64,000 nt of DNA. Origin: Patescibacteria group bacterium (GTDB lineage: Bacteria; Patescibacteriota; Patescibacteriia; UM-FILTER-42-10). Below the pieces are notes generated by a model. That model was given only the letters and a program-made list of their open reading frames with translations, was not told the origin of the DNA and did not search any database. The stretch is taken from assembly GCA_041666485.1 (NCBI GenBank), contig JBAYGW010000003.1, forward strand, positions 16,415 to 80,414. The letters run 5' to 3'. Shown here in pieces: positions 10,441 to 60,212 of the stretch. A program made the position numbers and the translations under genes. Numbering within the stretch: the stretch's first letter is position 1; the number at the start of each line of letters is the position of its first letter.

Positions 10441-10575
10441 TGTAGGTGGGAGGACCGCCGTACCAAAAAGCAAGCAGTAATGCTACCCGCTGGGTGACAT
10501 TGACTGACGGGATTCGTCTCGTCCGTGGGCAGATGTTGCCCTCTGGGATGCTAAAGTGCGCGTCCTCCCACCCCA
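10441..10575 (+). promoter_or_regulatory. structured G+C-rich leader RNA domain, class unknown
   Basis: An 11-bp perfect long-range helix (GGTGGGAGGAC 10445-10455 with GTCCTCCCACC 10562-10572) extends by 3 bp. It encloses an AGCA-GTAA-TGCT GNRA hairpin, a GACG-GATT-CGTC hairpin and a GGGCA-n5-TGCCC hairpin. Confidence 0.4.
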
Positions 10576-10760
10576 CTTTCTTCTACAAATTGCTTTGTGC
10601 GGACGCTTAAGTCCGTTTGTGATAGTCACCCCACAACCCGATCCTACAGGGAGGTACGCCAAATGTACTCGTGGAGTTACGCACGCCACGGGTTCGGTTG
10701 ACCTGCGATCTTCTCCGTCTGAGTAGTCAATGCCCACGACTCAAAATGAGGAGATCTCGC

Positions 10761-11126
10761 ATGTGCGACAAGACCCAATGGAACGCGGGGCACGTCCTCG
10801 TCGTCCAGACCGTGTTCCCGACCGACAGCGAATCCCCCGGCGGTTTCTCGCGCAGCGTCATGTTGTGCACCTGTGGGAGCTGCCTGAGCTCCAACAACCC
10901 GATGACGCCCGCAGGGCCCCTGCACAGCTACCTGAAACGGTGCTTTGAGCAGGACGCTGCTGATGCGGTGGCGGGGGGCCTTGAGCCGCCCGTCAACCTC
11001 CTGAGCATGCCGAAGCTTGACCCGCGCACCGGCGCCGAGAAGCCGACCAAGAAGCAGGCAGCCATGCTGATCAAGCAGATCGGTCCGGACGCCTTCGCTT
11101 CCGACATCGTCGCGGCCTACGCCTAG
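10761..11126 (+). CDS. hypothetical protein (121 aa) in a G+C-rich cassette
   Basis: ATG is preceded by GAGGAG at 7-nt spacing, codons are GC3-rich, and a strong terminator follows. No family recognised. Confidence 0.5.
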   Translation: MCDKTQWNAGHVLVVQTVFPTDSESPGGFSRSVMLCTCGSCLSSNNPMTPAGPLHSYLKRCFEQDAADAVAGGLEPPVNLLSMPKLDPRTGAEKPTKKQAAMLIKQIGPDAFASDIVAAYA

Positions 11127-11159
11127 CGTAGGAGAAGAAGTACATCGTTGAAGGACATC

Positions 11160-11190
11160 GGGCGAATCCACTGGATTCGCCCATTTTTTT
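11160..11190 (+). terminator. intrinsic terminator
   Basis: GGGCGAATCCA-C-TGGATTCGCCC perfect hairpin followed by ATTTTTTT. Confidence 0.85.
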
Positions 11191-11276
11191 ATTATGAATA
11201 TTGACAGAAGAAGTGGAATACAATACCATTGTTAACGCCCGCTGATTGTAAGACATCCTTCATGGAGGAGGTGGAC

Positions 11277-11573
11277 ATGTCCCAAAGTCGGCTGGTGATG
11301 TTCTTAATGCTCTTTCTCGGACTGACTCTCTCTCCCCTGTTTCTTGTCGTTGCGGCGGTTATGTTCCTTGCTCCCTCGGAGCCGAAGCTCATCCCCCGGG
11401 ATGATGAAGGGAGACGTTGCTGTCCCGTCTGCCACTCCAGACACTATCTCATCTTCCCGACTCGGCAGAAGAGCTACTTCGGCCATTCCTGGATTTCAGC
11501 ATTTTGCAGAAACCAAATGGAATACCGCTACCAGGACTGCACAATGAGCTGGAAAGAATCCGGGGACGGCTAA
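11277..11573 (+). CDS. hypothetical small Cys-rich membrane-anchored protein (98 aa) in a G+C-rich cassette
   Basis: GGAGGAGG SD 5 nt before the ATG, an N-terminal TM helix (LVMFLMLFLGLTLSPLFLVVAAVMFL), and a CCPVC plus further Cys residues. Confidence 0.5.
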   Translation: MSQSRLVMFLMLFLGLTLSPLFLVVAAVMFLAPSEPKLIPRDDEGRRCCPVCHSRHYLIFPTRQKSYFGHSWISAFCRNQMEYRYQDCTMSWKESGDG

Positions 11574-11623: not shown

Positions 11624-11959
11624 CTATCTGAAGATTTTAGACAGAAACCAGTTTACAATAGCCAGTACAATACCAAACAGCAATGCCCACCAAAAGCTTG
11701 CTATGGAAAATCCCGGAACAATTAACGCCATCAGCATAACCAATAATGCGTTAATCACCAGCGTAAACAAGCCAAGCGTCAGAATATTGATCGGCAGAGT
11801 AAAAATTACTAAAACAGGTTTGATAAATATATTAATCAGACCCAATACCAACGCCCCGACAAAAGCGACAAAAAAACCATCAACCGCTACGCCCGGTAGC
11901 AGATAGGCTGTGATCAGGATTGCGACCGTTGAAATTAGCCATTTAATAAGGATTTTCAT
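11624..11959 (-). CDS. phage holin family 4 / YvlD-like membrane protein
   Basis: 111-aa, 4-TM ORF; ITAYLLPGV and PINILTLGLFTLVINAL resemble the Phage_holin_4_2 family. Confidence 0.75.
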   Translation of the reverse strand: MKILIKWLISTVAILITAYLLPGVAVDGFFVAFVGALVLGLINIFIKPVLVIFTLPINILTLGLFTLVINALLVMLMALIVPGFSIASFWWALLFGIVLAIVNWFLSKIFR

Positions 11960-14001: not shown

Positions 14002-14418
14002 ATGAAAATTGTAATTTGCGGAAGTATGTCGTCAGCAGTTAAGATGTTAAACGCTGAGAAAGAATTACTTCAAAAAGGCCATAAAGTTGTATTACCAAAA
14101 CATACAAAAGAATATGCAGAAATAGAATCGGAGGCGGACACATCACATGAATCAATCAAGGACAAAATTGAACAAGATCTAATACGAGACTATTTTGAAG
14201 AGATAAAAAACGCTGATGCAGTTTTGATTATTAATGTTGATAAATACGGTATTCAAAATTATATCGGTGGAAATGCTTTTCTGGAAATGGGTTTTGCATA
14301 TGTTCTCAGTAAACCAATTTATATACTCAATCAAATTCCGGAAATATTTTATAAAGATGAGATTTTGGCAATGCAGCCGATTACACTTAACGGAAATTTA
14401 TCTAAAATACATTTATAG
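14002..14418 (+). CDS. nucleoside 2-deoxyribosyltransferase-like protein
   Basis: MKIVICGSM N-terminus and a GGNAFLEMGFAY acidic motif, typical of the NDT/DUF4406-like Rossmannoid fold. Confidence 0.55.
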   Translation: MKIVICGSMSSAVKMLNAEKELLQKGHKVVLPKHTKEYAEIESEADTSHESIKDKIEQDLIRDYFEEIKNADAVLIINVDKYGIQNYIGGNAFLEMGFAYVLSKPIYILNQIPEIFYKDEILAMQPITLNGNLSKIHL

Positions 14419-14465
14419 TTAGCAAATTTTTACCATTTTCTTCTATTGTTATATAATAAGAAAAC

Positions 14466-14650
14466 AATAAAAATCAAGCATCGCACCAGCCTTGGCGAGG
14501 CGGGCAACACCGGATATCACCACTACGGTCTAGAACCCTTGGGGGCCTTTTTCAAGGAATTTCAGAGAGTTTTTCAAGAGGTCACCCCGTCATACGACGG
14601 GGCAGGAAATGAGACAAAAGAGACAGTGCAGAGGGGTGTCTTATTCTTGA
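14466..14650 (+). ncRNA. candidate small RNA or remnant in a G+C-enriched non-coding patch
   Basis: TGTTATATAAT extended -10-like box at about 14449-14459. The frame has no ATG. Hairpins include CCCCGTC-ATAC-GACGGGG and CCTTG...CAAGG. Confidence 0.25.
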
Positions 14651-14855
14651 CTCATTTAAATAACAGTAGCGTAATATTTACACGTTTAATTATCTCAAAA
14701 GGCACGAATTGATATTCGTGCCCATATGCTATCTATAAGAATTAGACAATTATAACAACTTAATTTGTAAAACAGATACAAGAGACACAATGTCTATTAT
14801 AATTTTTCAACTAAATCATTAACTTCTTCGACATTAATTATGATTAGCTAAAAGA

Positions 14856-15392
14856 TTATTGCGCAGCAGGATAATTGACACGACCCAGATCGCGCGTTAA
14901 TGCCCACCATAAAGACGTCTTTGTAACCGATGGTAGCGATCCGGAAGTATCTTCAGGTATTGATAATACATCGTCCATTAATTGTCCTTGAATATACTGA
15001 CCCGGCACAAAAAGAGAGACTGCGGTCGCTGCGCTGGGATTCGGGTGATTCAACACTGTTAACTGTCCGTTAGTACGCATAACGTCTCTAATCATTAAAA
15101 CTCTTCCAATATATCCATCTGACTCGGTAAATGGATTACTATTTGGCGCGACTGCTGTATATGCATAAAAGCGAAATGAATTTGCAAAAGTCGGGCTAAG
15201 ATAAAAATAAATGCCCAAGAGTACAAATGTAAAACCAACCAAAGTAAAAAAGGAACCGACAATTAAGGAAATCCTTTTCCAAAGACTCCCTTTTGATTTG
15301 ATAATAAATATAATCAAAACAACCACTGCAATTAATATCAGCGGCATAATGACCGCCAAGCTTATGTAGTTTAAACCAAGGTTTGCTTGCAT
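14856..15392 (-). CDS. hypothetical membrane protein
   Basis: 178-aa ORF with two N-terminal TM helices and an extracytoplasmic C-terminal domain. Confidence 0.55.
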   Translation of the reverse strand: MQANLGLNYISLAVIMPLILIAVVVLIIFIIKSKGSLWKRISLIVGSFFTLVGFTFVLLGIYFYLSPTFANSFRFYAYTAVAPNSNPFTESDGYIGRVLMIRDVMRTNGQLTVLNHPNPSAATAVSLFVPGQYIQGQLMDDVLSIPEDTSGSLPSVTKTSLWWALTRDLGRVNYPAAQ

Positions 15393-15452
15393 ATGTTTTA
15401 TAATAAAGATTTATATGTATATATTATATCATTTTATATAAAAGTATAATAG

Positions 15453-15491
15453 TATAAAAATGGCTCTGACAACGAATTCGTCGCCAGAGCC
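15453..15491 (-). terminator. intrinsic terminator of the G+C-rich secreted-protein cassette
   Basis: GGCTCTG...CAGAGCC hairpin (inner ACGAATTCGT palindrome) followed by ATTTTTAT on the minus strand. Confidence 0.6.
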
Positions 15492-15514
15492 TTGAATGAA
15501 ACAGGAGCGCTATA

Positions 15515-15895
15515 CTACGGACAGCTGCCGATCCACGGGGTCGGACTGCCCGTGTAGTCGAATGCCAGGCAACCGAGATGCGTCGTACCACCACCGAGGG
15601 TCTTCGACGGCCAGGTGTTGGACTGAATGTTGATGTCATTCACCCATGCCTTGCCGATGTAACCGGAACCAGACGGAAGTCCCGAGACAGAGATCAGTCG
15701 TTGCCCGAGCGGGAGCGTGACCATCGTGTTCTGCCAACGGACTGTGCTCCCCTGGATGATCTGCACCGTGTACGTGAATGATGATGGACCTCTCACCGTC
15801 ACCTGAGCAGTGCCGGCATGGGCGACGCTAACAGATCCGATGGACACCATCACGACGAGGACAAACAGCAGGATGACACTCTTGAAGATCTTCAT
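15515..15895 (-). CDS. hypothetical small secreted protein (126 aa) in a G+C-rich cassette
   Basis: AGGTGG SD and a signal peptide ending VAHA-GT. The mature part is beta-rich with two C-terminal Cys and GC3-rich codons. Confidence 0.6.
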   Translation of the reverse strand: MKIFKSVILLFVLVVMVSIGSVSVAHAGTAQVTVRGPSSFTYTVQIIQGSTVRWQNTMVTLPLGQRLISVSGLPSGSGYIGKAWVNDINIQSNTWPSKTLGGGTTHLGCLAFDYTGSPTPWIGSCP

Positions 15896-16459
15896 GATCT
15901 TCCACCTTTCATGCGAGTTTGCCTATGCTGTAATGACCAATGAAGCTACGATGAACTCTTACCTCCTTTCTCAAATAGGAAACGAACGATGAATCATTCC
16001 TGGTGTAACCAAGAACGTTATTAAAAGTATGTATGAGTATCAAAATTATTGCAAGAATAAACTTGCGTTATGAAATCTCGGAATCCAAACTACTTTCTCT
16101 TTTTAGAGTGATGATTGAGTGTCCACCAACATCGAAATCAAGATTTTGATGTATTAATGCGTACAGTTTTTTTATAATATGACCATCTTAGACAAACCCA
16201 GACAATATGATTACCGATAATATCAGACAAAATAAATGCCCTTGGAATGAAGCAGAAATGTAAACACTCACAAATGTGCTGTAAAAAATATTTCAATTTG
16301 TGATTATTTCTGTGGGATTGAATATCTAGATAATGTTTTGTGTTGTTATCCCGATAAAAATACTTTGCTAGATAATAAACAAAACAAATAATTTTATTCC
16401 TTAACGCTCGCTCTGGACGCCGGAATATCCTATTCTGTTAGCTGATTGCCGGATAAATT

Positions 16460-17461
16460 TCAGGCTATCGGGTTATTCTCCATCTTTTCACTTTCATCTT
16501 CAATCTCCCCCACCAACTCTTCCAATAGATCTTCCAGCGTGGCAATACCGACGGCTTTTTGTTGCTTGTCCACAACTACTGCAATGTGAACATGAGTTTT
16601 CTGAAAAATTTTGAACAGGTAATTTATTTTAAAATCCTCATCTACAATAATCGGTTTTTTTGCAACCTGTTCAATACGAGCGTTGCCTTTATTTTTTACA
16701 AGTTCTCTAGCAATATCTTTCACTAGTGCAATCCCCACGATGTCATGCTTGTCAGATTTATATACCGGAACACGCGAATAGCCACTGGTAATAATTTCAC
16801 TCATCGCTTCTGAAATTGTTTTTTCACCTTGGAGCATAAAAACGTTTTTAAAAGGGACCATAATCTCTTTTGCTAAAGTATCGCTGAATATCAAAGCCTG
16901 GTTCATAATATATTGCTCGTGCGGTTGAATTACATTTCTTTCCACGCCAAACTGGATCATTTCCTTGATTTCTGTTTCCGTAATTAATTCTTGATCAGGG
17001 ATTTTTACAATTCTGTGCATTAAATTTGTAATCCATTCCAAAAACCAGACAAACGGATAAATAATTAAACCGAAATAGTAAACCGGCCTGGAAATAAATA
17101 AAGCTATGGCACCGGCATTACGGTTGGCAAATGTCTTTGGCATAATTTCACCAAAGATTAAGATCAACAAAGTCAGAATGCCCGTTGCTAATCCGATCAC
17201 ACCTGATCCAAAATGTTCTGAGACAATAATTGCCGTCATGGAGGCCGCGGAGATGTTTGCGATGTTATTGCCGATTAAAACTATAATAATCATCCGGCGA
17301 GGTCTTTCCTTTAGTTTGCGTAAAATACGCGAGCCGCGCTTATTTTCTTTAAGATACGTACGCACCTTTAAATCTGTTACCGAAAGCAAAGCAACCTCGG
17401 CAGCGGAAAAATATCCGGAGATCAGCAACAGAACAAATAAGATTAAAATGTTGGTCCACAT
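16460..17461 (-). CDS. CNNM/HlyC-CorC family transporter (DUF21 + CBS pair)
   Basis: Four N-terminal TM helices with the GEIMPK motif, followed by CBS-domain sequence. Confidence 0.9.
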   Translation of the reverse strand: MWTNILILFVLLLISGYFSAAEVALLSVTDLKVRTYLKENKRGSRILRKLKERPRRMIIIVLIGNNIANISAASMTAIIVSEHFGSGVIGLATGILTLLILIFGEIMPKTFANRNAGAIALFISRPVYYFGLIIYPFVWFLEWITNLMHRIVKIPDQELITETEIKEMIQFGVERNVIQPHEQYIMNQALIFSDTLAKEIMVPFKNVFMLQGEKTISEAMSEIITSGYSRVPVYKSDKHDIVGIALVKDIARELVKNKGNARIEQVAKKPIIVDEDFKINYLFKIFQKTHVHIAVVVDKQQKAVGIATLEDLLEELVGEIEDESEKMENNPIA

Positions 17462-22907: not shown

Positions 22908-24497
22908 CTAGTGCCAGAACATCCGGCGATCGGTAAAGAGCATCGCGATGCCCAGTTTGTCCGCGGACCTGATTGAATCCTGGTCGCGAATTGAACCGCC
23001 CTGCTGGACGATCGTCTTGACGCCGAACGTGTCCGCCAGGCGCACGCAGTCGTCAAACGGGAAGAAGCTGTCGGACACCAGCACAGCATGGTGCAGATCC
23101 ATATTCTGCGCCTCCATGTTGTTCATGGCCTGCTCCAGAGCAAGCCGTGCCGACTTGATCCGGCTGGTCTGGCCGTTGCCGATGCCGATCGTCTGCCCGT
23201 TCCAGACCACGATGACCGAGTTGGACTTGACGTGCTTTGACACATTGCAGCCGAAACTGATATCCGACCAGTAGCGGTCCTTGACACCGAGCTTGGTGAC
23301 GCACCGGAACGACCTGCAGTCAAACAGCTCGGTGTCCATCAGCTGGACCACCATGCCGCCGGTCACCGGCTTGAAGTTCAGCGTGCCGAACGGCATGCTG
23401 CAGGAAAGCTCCCCACCCAGTTTGAACAGCGGGGTCTCTGCCCTGGCGCGCTTCTTGGTGATGTGTTCCATCGCCTCCGGCGAAAAATCCAGCGCGACGA
23501 TCGCGTCCACCTTCTGCACGCAGATGGTTTCAGCGACTTCCTCCGTCACCTGGAAGTTGAGTACCACCACCCCGCCGAAAGCCGATTCCGGATCGCACGC
23601 CAGTGCGTTCTGGAAAGCCTTCAGCGGACTGAAGCTGTCCATCGCCACTCCGCACGGCGTACCATGCTTGATGATCGCGACTGCGAATTCCGGGGACAGG
23701 TCGCGGACCGTCTCAATGCCGGCATTGATATCCAGCACAGTGGTGGCCGAGAGCGGCTTGCCCCAGATCTGCTTGGCGTTTGCCGCGGTGTAGCAGTTCA
23801 GACCCGGCAGTTCGTAGAACGCACCCGGCTGATGCGGATTCTCACCGTAGCGCAGATCACACTTCTTCTGCAGACGCTGAACCATCCGATCCGGGAAGCT
23901 GGGGAACTCAAGGCGTTCAGCCAGCCAGTCGGAGATCGTGGCGTCATACCACGCAGTGTGAAGAAACGCCTTGTAAGCCAGTTGCAGACGTTCCAGCGCG
24001 TTGAACCCGACATCTTCCGAAAGACACCGAATCACAAAGCCGTACTGCTCTGGTGAAGTGACCACCAGCACATGGCTGTGATTCTTCGCGGCCGCGCGGA
24101 TCAGTGCCACGCCGCCGATATCAATCTGCTCAATCGCGTCCCGAAATGCCACGGTCCGATCAGCCACCGTCTCTTCAAACGGATACAGGTTGACCACGAC
24201 CATGTCAAACGGGTAGATGCTGTGATCAAACAGCTCCTGCATGTGCGCGTCGCTGTCCTGATCCGCCAGGATCCCGCCGTGGATCTTCGGATGCAGAGTC
24301 TTCACCCTGCCACCCAGAATTTCCGGGAAACCGGTCACCTCCTCTACCGTTCGCACGGGAATTCCGGCTTCCACCAGGTGTCTGGACGTTCCGCCGGAAG
24401 ATACAATCTCCCAGCCATGTTCAAACAGCACGGTGGCAAGCTCAACAATGCCGCGCTTGTCGGACACGCTGATCAGAGCGCGCTGATTTGCTCGCAT
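22908..24497 (-). CDS. purH: bifunctional AICAR transformylase / IMP cyclohydrolase
   Basis: ALISVSDK, GGRVKTLHPKIHGGIL, GENPHQ and QQGGSIRD motifs. Start set at MRANQ, preceded by AAAGGAGC. Strongly G+C-rich relative to its flanks. Confidence 0.93.
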   Translation of the reverse strand: MRANQRALISVSDKRGIVELATVLFEHGWEIVSSGGTSRHLVEAGIPVRTVEEVTGFPEILGGRVKTLHPKIHGGILADQDSDAHMQELFDHSIYPFDMVVVNLYPFEETVADRTVAFRDAIEQIDIGGVALIRAAAKNHSHVLVVTSPEQYGFVIRCLSEDVGFNALERLQLAYKAFLHTAWYDATISDWLAERLEFPSFPDRMVQRLQKKCDLRYGENPHQPGAFYELPGLNCYTAANAKQIWGKPLSATTVLDINAGIETVRDLSPEFAVAIIKHGTPCGVAMDSFSPLKAFQNALACDPESAFGGVVVLNFQVTEEVAETICVQKVDAIVALDFSPEAMEHITKKRARAETPLFKLGGELSCSMPFGTLNFKPVTGGMVVQLMDTELFDCRSFRCVTKLGVKDRYWSDISFGCNVSKHVKSNSVIVVWNGQTIGIGNGQTSRIKSARLALEQAMNNMEAQNMDLHHAVLVSDSFFPFDDCVRLADTFGVKTIVQQGGSIRDQDSIRSADKLGIAMLFTDRRMFWH

Positions 24498-24563
24498 TTC
24501 TGCTCCTTTCGTGGCAAACCGTGAAGCTTTCACCGCAAACAACCGTTTGGGAAACGGTTTTTT

Positions 24564-55653: not shown

Positions 55654-55810
55654 ACCGTCTTATTGTACCAAATATCAATGTTTCTGGCGACTTGTCATTA
55701 CAGTCACGTAGCAACCCTGACTTGCCAGAGTAAATGAAATATGGTAAAAACAAAACTGTGCCCATCTTCAGGGCGCAAATGACCAAAACCCGTTTTTGGG
55801 AGGTATTGGT

Positions 55811-56923
55811 ATGGACCAACGATTTGTCGATCTGGCGAGAGTCATGGTCGGCCATTCCACAAGGGTCTCAAAGGACGATATCGTCATCGTCAAGAGCACG
55901 GAGGTAGTGCCGCCCGACATGATCTTCGCGGTGATCCAGACCGTGCGCGAAGCGGGGGGCTCCGTGATCCCCTGGCGCTACGATCCGCGCATTGACTTCG
56001 AGGCATTCAGGGGTGGCACCGCTCACCAGCTGCGTGCCTGGGGCGCCGGCCAGTTTACCCAACTGGCTGCCGCCAACTGCTTCATTGAGTTCCGGCCGTT
56101 CAGTAACCAGCTCGACGGCAACGACGTGCCGGCAGCGGACATGCAGCGCCACGGCGAGGTGTTCGTTCCGCTGACGGTTGAACAGCGCGTGGAACGCACC
56201 CGCTGGGTGCTGACCCGCTGGCCGACGCCGGCCAACGCCCAGTTGGCCGGGATGTCCACGACGCAGTTCGAAGAGTTCTTCTTCAAGGCATGCCTCGCCG
56301 ACTACGGCGCCATGGCCAAGGCCGTGAAGCCGCTCGTCGCCCTGATGGAGCGGACCGACCAGGTCCAGATCCAAGGGCCGGGCGACACCGATCTCACTTT
56401 CAGCATCAAGGGAATTCCGATCATCGCCTGTACCGGATCGCACAACATCCCCGACGGCGAAGTGTTCACGGCGCCGGTTCGCGATTCCATGAACGGCGTG
56501 ATCGCCTACAACACCCCCACGGTCAACTCCCGCGGCCAGCGGTTCACCAATCTCCGCTTCGTGGTCAAGGCGGGCAAGATCGTGGAGGCGACCTGCGAGA
56601 CGGGTGACCAGACGGCGCTGGACGCCTTCCTGGACACCGACGAGGGTGCCCGCTACTTCGGCGAATTCGCCCTCGGCATCAACAACTTCGTCACGGGTGT
56701 GATCGGCGAAACGCTGTTCGACGAGAAGGTCGGTGGAAGCCTCCACTTGACGCCCGGCCGGTGCTATGAGCAAGCGCCGAACGGGAACCAGTCGGCCAAC
56801 CACTGGGACATCGTCTGCGATCAGCGCGGGGCTTCCGGTGGTGGGGAGATCTACTTCGACGGCAAGCTGGTCCGCAGCAAAGGGCTTTTCATCCCGAAGA
56901 GCCTCCACGCGCTCAATCCCTGA
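55811..56923 (+). CDS. M29 family aminopeptidase (AmpS/PepS-like)
   Basis: 370-aa ORF; NIPDGEVFTAP and HWDIV motifs of thermophilic metalloprotease M29. GGGAGG SD. Strongly G+C-rich. Confidence 0.82.
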   Translation: MDQRFVDLARVMVGHSTRVSKDDIVIVKSTEVVPPDMIFAVIQTVREAGGSVIPWRYDPRIDFEAFRGGTAHQLRAWGAGQFTQLAAANCFIEFRPFSNQLDGNDVPAADMQRHGEVFVPLTVEQRVERTRWVLTRWPTPANAQLAGMSTTQFEEFFFKACLADYGAMAKAVKPLVALMERTDQVQIQGPGDTDLTFSIKGIPIIACTGSHNIPDGEVFTAPVRDSMNGVIAYNTPTVNSRGQRFTNLRFVVKAGKIVEATCETGDQTALDAFLDTDEGARYFGEFALGINNFVTGVIGETLFDEKVGGSLHLTPGRCYEQAPNGNQSANHWDIVCDQRGASGGGEIYFDGKLVRSKGLFIPKSLHALNP

Positions 56924-60138: not shown

Positions 60139-60212
60139 TGGCTGGGGAGGAGGGATTCGAACCCCCGGTGACGGGACCAGAACCCGTTGCCTTACCGCTT
60201 GGCTACTCCCCA
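60139..60212 (-). tRNA. tRNA-Gln (anticodon CUG), CCA encoded
   Basis: Manual cloverleaf: acceptor TGGGGAG/CTCCCCA, D arm GCC-AAGCGGTAA-GGC, anticodon arm ACGGG-TTCTGGT-CCCGT, variable loop CACC, T arm GGGGG-TTCGAAT-CCCTC, discriminator G and CCA. 74 nt. Confidence 0.9.

What the first reader, a model, noticed from the sequence alone, without database searches (positions are those of the whole stretch)
15453..16060. G+C-rich cassette encoding a 126-aa secreted beta-rich protein with a C-terminal Cys pair
The unit is on the minus strand. An AGGTGG SD precedes MKIFKS... and a classical signal peptide ending VAHA-GT. The mature domain is about 100 aa, rich in G/S/T/V, with two Cys near the C-terminus (HLGCLAFD...GSCP). 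A hairpin+T-run terminator lies at 15453-15491.

Composition contrasts sharply with both flanks. Upstream lies an unusually long ORF-free A+T-rich stretch.

A small disulfide-stabilised secreted protein in an episymbiont-like genome is a candidate host-interaction or antimicrobial factor. That role is inference.
Basis: partly seen in the sequence, partly recalled or inferred. Interest (0 to 1): 0.5.

Follow-up and report, generated by a model that had tools for sequence, protein, structure and literature searches.

The report
Secreted beta-sandwich protein with membrane partner
A real, G+C-rich gene in a Patescibacteria genome encodes a small exported beta-sandwich protein of a very rare, unnamed family that almost always sits next to a small membrane-protein gene; what it does is still unknown.

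Summary
They are the 126-aa ORF (15515-15895, minus), the AGGTGG ribosome-binding site, a signal peptide ending VAHA|GT, a 99-aa Gly/Ser/Thr-rich mature part, two C-terminal Cys, the terminator (15453-15491), the G+C jump and the 564-bp gene-free stretch upstream.

The gene is real. Its mature part is under strong purifying selection (dN/dS 0.06). It models with high confidence (pLDDT 96) as an all-beta sandwich.

In 8 of 9 loci of the close subfamily, gene A is followed by gene B (14856-15392). B is a Cys-free protein with two transmembrane helices and an external domain. A conserved terminator hairpin and B's own promoter lie between the two genes.

My best reading is a two-protein cell-surface module, with A compositionally foreign. 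An antimicrobial or host-interaction role is untested. Moderate interest.

The parts
15515..15895 (-). Gene A coding sequence (126 aa plus stop): pre-protein of the exported beta-sandwich
   Evidence: ORF list. Identical protein is in public databases as a hypothetical protein of a Patescibacteria MAG. dN/dS against L001 is 0.205 overall and 0.064 for the mature part.
15815..15895 (-). Signal peptide, residues 1-27 (MKIFK / hydrophobic core / VAHA, cleavage before G28)
   Evidence: Hydropathy and the AxA rule. Every complete family member has an AxA-type or lipobox signal at this place. It evolves faster than the mature part (dN 0.265 against 0.014). SignalP was not run.
15518..15814 (-). Mature domain, 99 aa: eight-strand beta-sandwich with the invariant Cys pair C109/C125
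15902..15907 (-). Shine-Dalgarno AGGTGG, 6 nt before the ATG
   Evidence: Read directly. Conserved in L001.
15896..16062 (-). Promoter region and roughly 110-130-nt leader of gene A. Includes the SD-like box GAAAGGAGGT (15961-15970) and a small hairpin (15997-16015).
   Evidence: This block is conserved with L001 up to 16062 and not beyond. The SD-like box recurs 65-80 nt upstream of the start in 7 loci. The promoter position is inferred, not shown.
15453..15491 (-). Intrinsic terminator of gene A (stem 15462-15491, T-run 15453-15461)
   Evidence: Terminator scan. The same hairpin (GCTCTGGYGAC...GTCRCCAGAGC plus a T-run) is present in all 8 A-B loci. 93.8% of cells are paired and 3 pairs show compensatory changes.
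15393..15452 (-). Gene B promoter region with an extended -10 box, TGATATAAT (15423-15431)
   Evidence: Conserved in L001 and L005 even where gene A is replaced. TATAAT/TATACT-like boxes occur in all A-B spacers. Function is inferred.
14856..15392 (-). Gene B: 178-aa Cys-free membrane protein. Two N-terminal transmembrane helices, a short basic loop, and a C-terminal domain of about 115 aa predicted to face outward.
   Evidence: ORF. 5 homologue clusters in 5.8 billion proteins. Lies directly downstream of A in 8 loci. The AlphaFold2 model is confident only for the helical hairpin. Topology comes from the positive-inside rule and is an inference.
14517..14855 (-). Gene B 3' region: terminator hairpin (14697-14723) followed by a conserved non-coding block (14517-14696) that travels with B
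   Evidence: 88-95% identical to L001 and 76-88% to L005-8, with the same end point in all three. No Rfam match. Fold z-score -3.0.
16063..16459 (.). A+T-rich spacer specific to this genome, between the A unit and the CNNM/CBS transporter gene (16460-17461)
   Evidence: No ORF, no repeat and no homology to any fetched locus. Together with 15896-16062 it forms the longest gene-free gap in the window. Its nature is unknown.

Best explanation
Gene A encodes a pre-protein exported by the Sec pathway. Signal peptidase I would cut after VAHA27. The 99-aa mature part folds into a compact Ig/prealbumin-like beta-sandwich. One disulfide (C109-C125), invariant in complete family members, pins the C-terminus.

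Gene A is the first gene of a conserved two-gene module. The second gene, B, encodes a protein anchored by an N-terminal transmembrane hairpin. Its domain of about 115 aa faces the same extracytoplasmic side.

The most likely mechanism is that A is a non-enzymatic binding module that works at the outer face of the membrane together with B. In this single-membrane organism it would be held there by B. Several relatives use a lipid anchor instead.

The two genes are transcribed separately. A has its own promoter and leader and a strong terminator. B has an extended -10 promoter.

The high G+C content, especially at third codon positions, marks A as foreign in a 40% G+C genome that holds several other single-gene G+C-rich acquisitions.

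**Shown:** the gene is real and under selection, it has an export signal, the fold, the Cys pattern, and the A-B linkage.
**Inferred:** physical A-B contact, surface retention, a binding function, and horizontal origin.
For: **The gene is real**
- Mature-domain dN/dS is 0.064 against L001 (14 synonymous, 3 non-synonymous changes). It is 0.089 between L003 and L012.
- AlphaFold2 gives pLDDT 96 from only 7 sequences.

**Export**
- The signal-peptide features are present.
- All complete family members carry either an AxA signal or a lipobox (L-x-x-C) plus linker.

**Disulfides**
- C109 and C125 are present in every complete sequence.
- A second Cys pair is present or absent together in 16 of 17 sequences.

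**Partner gene B**
- B lies 85-122 nt downstream of A in the window, L001, L003/4, L012, L013, L014, L096 and L097. A identities across these loci go down to about 51-62% and B identities to 35-50%.
- The terminator hairpin between A and B is conserved with compensatory changes.
- dS is similar for A (0.21) and B (0.24) between the window and L001, so the pair has been linked since those genomes split.

**Retention logic**
- Distant relatives in 60-68% G+C genomes lack B. One of them (L099) also encodes a TonB-dependent receptor.

**Foreign composition**
- GC3 is 0.73 against a median of 0.39, while B next door has GC3 0.35.
- An M29 peptidase and PurH in the same window are similar outliers.
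- Horizontal transfer is frequent in Patescibacteria (PMC12455944).
Against: - There is no direct evidence that A and B touch. B's outer domain could not be modelled (pLDDT 49) and no complex prediction was possible.
- A terminator and a separate promoter lie between the genes, so they need not be co-expressed.
- A occurs without B in L002 and in the distant high-G+C relatives.
- B occurs without A in L009, L010/11 and L005-8.
- If A and B arrived together, their very different G+C (0.58 against 0.40) is unexplained.
- If A arrived later, the equal dS values mean this happened before the window/L001 split. No donor was found.
Confidence: 0.5

Rival explanations
1. Secreted antimicrobial protein (A) with a membrane immunity protein (B). 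A is released, damages the envelope of competitors or hosts, and B protects the producer.
For: - The gene order is small secreted protein, then terminator, then a membrane protein with its own promoter.
- 'Orphan' B genes exist without A (L009, L010/11), and B is kept when A is replaced (L005-8).
- The module sits in different genomic places in related genomes.
Against: - A is highly conserved and under strong purifying selection rather than diversifying.
- Six relatives are lipoproteins, so they would stay tethered to the producer.
- A occurs without B in four loci.
- No match to any bacteriocin, toxin or defence family. No toxin-like fold.
- No match in phage, plasmid or viral collections.
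Confidence: 0.15
2. Soluble or lipid-anchored inhibitor of an extracellular enzyme, such as a protease or a cell-wall hydrolase from the host or competitors. This would be analogous to small beta-sandwich or beta-barrel inhibitors that exist in free and lipoprotein forms. B would be incidental or a co-receptor.
For: - Small size, a disulfide-stabilised beta-sandwich, and both secreted and lipoprotein versions in one family.
- Invariant surface-type residues: TWPxK, HLGCL, GxPxPW.
- One distant relative lies directly downstream of a Peptidase_C39_2 lipoprotein gene.
Against: - No sequence match at E<=10 to any Pfam family, which includes the inhibitor families.
- No target enzyme gene is consistently nearby.
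Confidence: 0.1
3. Component or substrate of an envelope glycosylation system. A and/or B work with the PMT_2-type (GT-C) membrane glycosyltransferase that is encoded divergently upstream of A in several relatives.
For: A PMT_2 gene of about 525 aa lies immediately upstream, on the opposite strand, in L003/L004, L012 and L013. Mature A is rich in Ser and Thr.
Against: - Those PMT_2 proteins are 75-80% identical to each other, so this is one clade and the linkage may be inherited synteny.
- There is no PMT_2 gene near A in the window, L001, L096 or L002, and no homologue of it anywhere in the 64-kb window.
Confidence: 0.08
4. Artefact: the G+C-rich segment is a mis-assembled or contaminating fragment, or the ORF is not a gene.
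For: A sharp G+C step at both ends of a short segment in a metagenome-assembled genome.
Against: - The same A-to-B junction occurs in an independent assembly of a different genome that is 88% identical in DNA (L001/L095).
- A-B adjacency occurs in six further loci.
- Purifying selection and a very confident fold.
Confidence: 0.02

Closest known systems
Ig-like / prealbumin(transthyretin)-like beta-sandwich domains: NOMO Ig-like domains, alpha-2-macroglobulin MG domains, CnaB/pilin domains, the Mfa2 fimbrial anchor, the T6SS lipoprotein TssJ
Sec-dependent small beta-sandwich bacteriocins with adjacent immunity genes (for example lactococcin 972; recalled from memory, not tested structurally)
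   Same: A Sec signal, a small all-beta mature protein, and a downstream membrane-protein gene.
   Different: No sequence match to that or any bacteriocin family. There is no ABC-type immunity transporter. The family includes lipoproteins and is under strong purifying selection.
Small periplasmic or lipoprotein enzyme inhibitors (MliC/PliC, chagasin-like ICP, Streptomyces subtilisin inhibitor, tendamistat; recalled from memory)
   Same: About 100 aa, beta-rich, often disulfide-stabilised, and found in both soluble and lipid-anchored forms.
   Different: No Pfam hit at E<=10, and none of these appears among the best structural matches.
Horizontally acquired, compositionally atypical genes and islands in Patescibacteria (PMC12455944)
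   Same: A short G+C-atypical segment in a streamlined low-G+C genome. The same module sits in different genomic neighbourhoods in related genomes. In L001 it lies next to a tRNA gene.
   Different: There is no integrase, transposase or repeat at the borders in this window. Only gene A is atypical, not its conserved partner B. No donor lineage was identified.

Membership tests
Sec/signal-peptidase-I secreted proteins | Positively charged N-region, a hydrophobic core of 10-20 residues, small residues at -3 and -1 (AxA), and no lipobox Cys | tested here: met
   MKIFK (+2), a 19-residue core with mean hydropathy 2.68, A-H-A before G28, and no Cys in the signal. Equivalent signals occur in the relatives. 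This is a heuristic; SignalP was not available.
Bacterial lipoproteins (signal peptidase II) | Lipobox L-x-x-C at the end of the signal peptide | tested here: not met
   The window protein has none. Relatives P0006, P0007, P0013, P0015 and the L096 and L097 proteins do (LIVC|S, LIGC|S, LVDC|S, FTGC|S, FIGC|S).
Ig-like / prealbumin-like beta-sandwich fold | Two-sheet sandwich of 7-9 antiparallel strands that superposes on known members | tested here: met
Any named protein family (Pfam, NCBIfam, PHROGs, PADLOC, PDB sequences) | A significant profile match | tested here: not met
   Pfam gave 0 hits at E<=10. NCBIfam gave only noise, at 14 bits against cut-offs of 47-531. PHROGs gave 0 and PADLOC 0. 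The best PDB profile search hit was E 0.75.
Disulfide-stabilised extracellular protein | Conserved Cys pairs that lie close together in the structure and co-vary | tested here: inconclusive
   C109 and C125 are present in all complete members. The second pair is present or absent together in 16 of 17 sequences. The C-terminus is confidently packed (pLDDT 93 for the last block). Model coordinates could not be read, so the S-S distance was not measured. The oxidation state is unknown.
Toxin (bacteriocin) plus immunity gene pair | Toxin homology or activity, the immunity gene always accompanying the toxin, and rapid diversification | tested here: not met
   There is no toxin homology. A occurs without B in 4 loci. 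dN/dS is 0.06-0.09. Activity cannot be tested here.
Mobile gene cassette or genomic island | Atypical composition, variable genomic location, a recombinase or repeats at the borders, and tRNA adjacency | tested here: inconclusive
   Composition and variable location are met. In the window there are no border repeats, recombinase or tRNA. In L001 the block lies about 200 nt from tRNA-Asn, between 32-nt direct repeats. Large serine recombinase genes lie within 4 kb in L003, L005 and L009.

The most novel reading that the evidence does not exclude
Gene B with its conserved flanks (14517-15452) is a resident 'docking' gene. The slot just upstream of it is a hot spot where unrelated, G+C-rich genes for exported proteins are swapped in by horizontal transfer. 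That slot holds gene A in this window and in L001. It holds an unrelated Cys-rich 231-aa lipoprotein (GC3 0.70) in the related genomes L005-8, with the breakpoint exactly after A's terminator. B would then be a generic membrane anchor or partner for interchangeable surface proteins in ultra-small episymbiotic bacteria.
Probability: 0.12. Interest if true: 0.6.

Novelty: new member of a known kind. Interest (0 to 1): 0.3.

Why it matters
Patescibacteria live attached to other microbes, and most of their surface proteins have no known function. This work turns an anonymous 'hypothetical protein' into a defined and testable object:
- a very rare family of exported beta-sandwich proteins with a confident structure;
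- a fixed membrane-protein partner;
- a defined transcription layout.

If the pair forms a surface complex, it is a small, tractable candidate for studying how these cells present binding modules. The contrast in composition between the two linked genes is also a clean case for studying how foreign genes settle into streamlined genomes. On present evidence, though, it remains an ordinary orphan secreted protein.

Tried and rejected
- **Family searches.** Pfam, NCBIfam, PHROGs and PADLOC for A and B gave nothing. PDB profile searches for A and B gave nothing.
- **False positives.** Large repetitive proteins found by the exhaustive profile search (P0020-P0030) are Big_9/cadherin/fn3 repeat proteins or unannotated, not family members.
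- **Structure of B.** The model was too poor to use (pLDDT 49), so no fold search was run on it.
- **RNA families.** Rfam found only a tRNA in the window (60142-60212) and nothing significant in 14300-16500.
- **Empty-site comparison.** I scanned species-representative genomes with the neighbouring CNNM gene to find a relative that lacks the insert. No relative closer than 37% identity turned up, so the comparison was not possible.
- **Mobile elements.** tblastn against phage and plasmid collections and IMG/VR scans for A and B gave no match.
- **L001 direct repeat.** It is absent from the window and from the other loci.
- **Direction of G+C change.** Comparing the window and L001 copies of A gave 12 against 5 sites in the mature part, too few to conclude decay from a G+C-rich ancestor.
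- **Upstream small ORF.** I considered one behind the second SD-like box. There is no consistent start codon or frame across loci.
- **Literature.** Two searches found general work on secretion and gene transfer in Patescibacteria but nothing on this family.

Full report
**1.

- AGGTGG lies at 15902-15907, six bases before the ATG.
- The N-terminus has two Lys, a 19-residue hydrophobic core (mean hydropathy 2.68) and VAHA before Gly28.
- The mature part is 99 aa and 10.4 kDa. It has 14 Gly, 13 Thr, 11 Ser and 7 Val, and two Cys at positions 109 and 125.
- The terminator scan finds a 13-bp stem at 15462-15491 followed by a T-run.
- The ORF has GC 0.577 and GC3 0.73. The window has GC 0.405 and a median ORF GC3 of 0.39. 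The ORF ranks third of 68 ORFs, and the flanks drop to 0.29-0.37.
- The 564-bp gap upstream (15896-16459, GC 0.335) is the longest ORF-free gap in the window, where the median gap is 36 bp.

**2. It is a real gene for a folded, exported protein**

An identical protein is on record as a hypothetical protein of a Patescibacteria MAG. A 96%-identical one comes from another Patescibacteria MAG, locus L001. In L001 the gene caller chose a late start, but the full ORF with a signal peptide is intact there.

Between the window and L001 the mature domain differs by 14 synonymous and 3 non-synonymous changes (dN/dS 0.064). The signal peptide evolves much faster. A second pair, L003 against L012, gives 0.089.

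AlphaFold2, using only seven sequences, gives pLDDT 96.1 and pTM 0.86 with eight beta-strands.

**3. The family is tiny and unnamed**

A word-indexed search of 5.8 billion protein clusters found 7 proteins. An exhaustive profile search of 1.84 billion representatives found 19. About a dozen of these are real. The rest are repeat proteins with Big_9, cadherin or fn3 domains, or are unannotated. A profile search with all 17 aligned members added one more.

There is no match in Pfam, NCBIfam, PHROGs, PADLOC or PDB sequences.

**4. What the alignment shows**
- Every complete member starts with a secretion signal. Six carry a lipobox followed by a low-complexity linker, so they are lipoproteins.
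- Most relatives have a second pair (SGCGY and SKC). The window and L001 proteins have lost both together. Across the family the two are present or absent together in 16 of 17 sequences. That is the expected signature of two separate disulfides.
- Invariant or nearly invariant motifs are TWPxK, (H)LGCLxF and GxPxPW.

**5.

Directly downstream lies gene B (14856-15392, minus). It encodes 178 aa with no Cys, two N-terminal hydrophobic helices separated by the basic loop KSKGSLWKR, and a C-terminal domain of about 115 aa. It has no family match and only five homologue clusters.

A B homologue follows gene A, 85-122 nt downstream, in eight loci: the window, L001 (=L095), L003/L004, L012, L013, L014, L096 and L097. 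That is 8 of the 9 loci of the close subfamily. The exception is L002, where A is a lipoprotein in a different kind of genome.

The spacer always holds the same hairpin, GCTCTGGYGAC-loop-GTCRCCAGAGC, plus a T-run. 93.8% of cells are paired and three pairs show compensatory changes. A TATAAT-like box follows it. In the window this is TGATATAAT at 15423-15431. So the two genes are always adjacent but appear to be transcribed separately.

By the positive-inside rule the C-terminal domain of B faces outward, into the same compartment as A. This topology is an inference. B's outer domain could not be modelled (pLDDT 49).

**6. Boundaries and mobility**

DNA homology between the window and L001 runs from 14517 to 16062 (1551 bp, 87.8% identity). 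It stops sharply on both sides, and the flanking genes are unrelated.

The block contains:
- about 167 bp of promoter and leader for A;
- gene A and its terminator;
- B's promoter and gene B;
- 339 bp of conserved non-coding DNA after B.

L005-8 come from a genome related to L001, with dnaG-rpoD 82% identical in DNA. There the B part (window 14517-15452) is present at a third genomic position. The slot upstream of B holds an unrelated Cys-rich 231-aa lipoprotein gene with GC3 0.70, and another G+C-rich gene follows B. The breakpoint falls exactly after A's terminator.

In L001 the block lies about 200 nt downstream of tRNA-Asn, between 32-nt direct repeats. Nothing comparable exists in the window. 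No copy was found in phage, plasmid or viral collections.

**7. Composition**

| Locus | GC3 of A | GC3 of B | Locus GC |
|---|---|---|---|
| window | 0.73 | 0.35 | 0.405 |
| L001 | 0.65 | 0.32 | 0.422 |
| L003 | 0.53 | 0.43 | 0.455 |
| L012 | 0.67 | 0.47 | 0.48 |
| L013 | 0.60 | 0.65 | 0.54 |
| L014 | 0.64 | 0.62 | 0.538 |

(All values.)

- In the low-G+C genomes A is richer in G+C than B. In the 54% G+C genomes (L013, L014) the two are equal.
- In L002 gene A is poorer in G+C than its host: GC 0.39 against 0.47, with GC3 0.27. The protein therefore does not force G+C-rich codons, and the excess in the window reflects history.
- Distant relatives live in genomes of 60-68% G+C, at matching composition, and without B. 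High-G+C lineages are thus plausible ultimate sources, but no close donor was found.
- dS is about the same for A (0.21) and B (0.24) between the window and L001. The A-B junction therefore predates the split of these genomes. Why only A has kept a foreign composition is unexplained.
- The window holds other single-gene G+C outliers: an M29 peptidase, PurH, and an island at 10.5-11.6 kb. This fits the frequent gene transfer reported for Patescibacteria (PMC12455944).

**8. Interpretation**

What is solid: A is a real, conserved, exported, probably disulfide-locked beta-sandwich, encoded as the first half of a conserved A-B module.

The most economical mechanism is a two-protein assembly on the outer face of the membrane. 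A would be a binding module held in place by B, or by a lipid anchor in some relatives. The distant relatives lack B, and one of them (L099) also encodes a TonB-dependent receptor. That fits the idea that retention matters, but it is an inference.

The toxin/immunity reading fits the gene layout and the orphan B genes. It is weakened by strong purifying selection, by the lipoprotein forms, by A genes without B, and by the lack of any toxin similarity.

An inhibitor role and a link to the PMT_2 glycosyltransferase seen in one clade remain possible but thinly supported.

Mis-assembly is effectively excluded by the independent occurrences of the same junction.

**9. Verdict**

This is a new member of a familiar kind, a small exported beta-sandwich protein of unknown function. 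It belongs to a very rare, unnamed family with a fixed membrane partner. Interest is moderate to low (0.3).

The most novel reading still open is that B marks a swap site for foreign exported-protein genes.

Noticed in passing
window 55796-56923 (+); 22908-24542 (-): Two other single-gene G+C-rich outliers in this 40.5% G+C window. One is an M29 aminopeptidase (GC 0.63, GC3 0.84). The other is PurH, the AICAR transformylase/IMP cyclohydrolase (GC 0.59, GC3 0.76). They look like separate horizontal acquisitions from high-G+C donors.
   Followed up: partly
window 10483-11573: A G+C-rich island of about 1.1 kb (up to 0.68 G+C) with overlapping ORFs on both strands. The frame 10671-11126 (+) has GC3 0.81 and is probably the real one. 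There is no Pfam match.
   Followed up: partly
window 14517-14696: A conserved non-coding block after gene B's terminator (14697-14723). It travels with B in three genomes and ends at the same base in all of them (…GGTTCTAGACCGTAGTGGTGA). L005 lacks one 22-nt hairpin (window 14585-14602). There is no Rfam match. The fold z-score is -3.0 on the minus strand. It could be a small RNA or the end of a mobile unit.
   Followed up: partly
window 15961-15970, and the equivalent place in L001, L003, L012, L013, L096, L002: A second Shine-Dalgarno-like box, GAAAGGAGGT, lies 65-80 nt upstream of the true ribosome-binding site of gene A in seven loci. No consistent small ORF follows it. Its role is unexplained. 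In L013 the database protein model extends upstream across this box, and the L014 model carries a similar long N-terminal extension; both starts look mis-called.
   Followed up: partly
L001 5465-5540, 5597-5628 and 7383-7414: In L001 the A-B block lies just downstream of tRNA-Asn. It is bracketed by 32-nt direct repeats ending …GAGTCCTGCCYCCGGAGCCAATA, which resemble a tRNA 3' end. In the related L005 the same tRNA-Asn is followed by a large serine recombinase gene. This may be the remnant of an integration site.
   Followed up: partly
L005/L006 5160-5855 and 7061-7804: In a relative of L001, gene B is flanked by two other G+C-rich genes with no family match. One is a Cys-rich 231-aa lipoprotein (GC3 0.70), sitting where gene A is in the window. 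The other is a 247-aa protein (GC3 0.64).
   Followed up: partly
L099, L100/L101, L102/L103: Distant A-like proteins have extra Cys-rich C-terminal tails (…CPPPCWNCPG…). They sit in genomes of 60-68% G+C, without gene B. Their neighbours include CHAT-protease, Peptidase_C39_2, ECF-sigma/anti-sigma or Bub-like (ThiF/Multi_ubiq/BubE) genes.
   Followed up: no
window 16063-16459: A 397-bp A+T-rich, ORF-free stretch between the gene A unit and the CNNM/CBS transporter gene. It has no homology to any fetched locus and no repeat in the window. In a genome whose median intergenic gap is 36 bp, this is unexplained.
   Followed up: partly
window 11624-11959 (-): A Phage_holin_4_2 family protein (E 1e-33) lies beside the G+C-rich island at 10.5-11.6 kb.
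   Followed up: no
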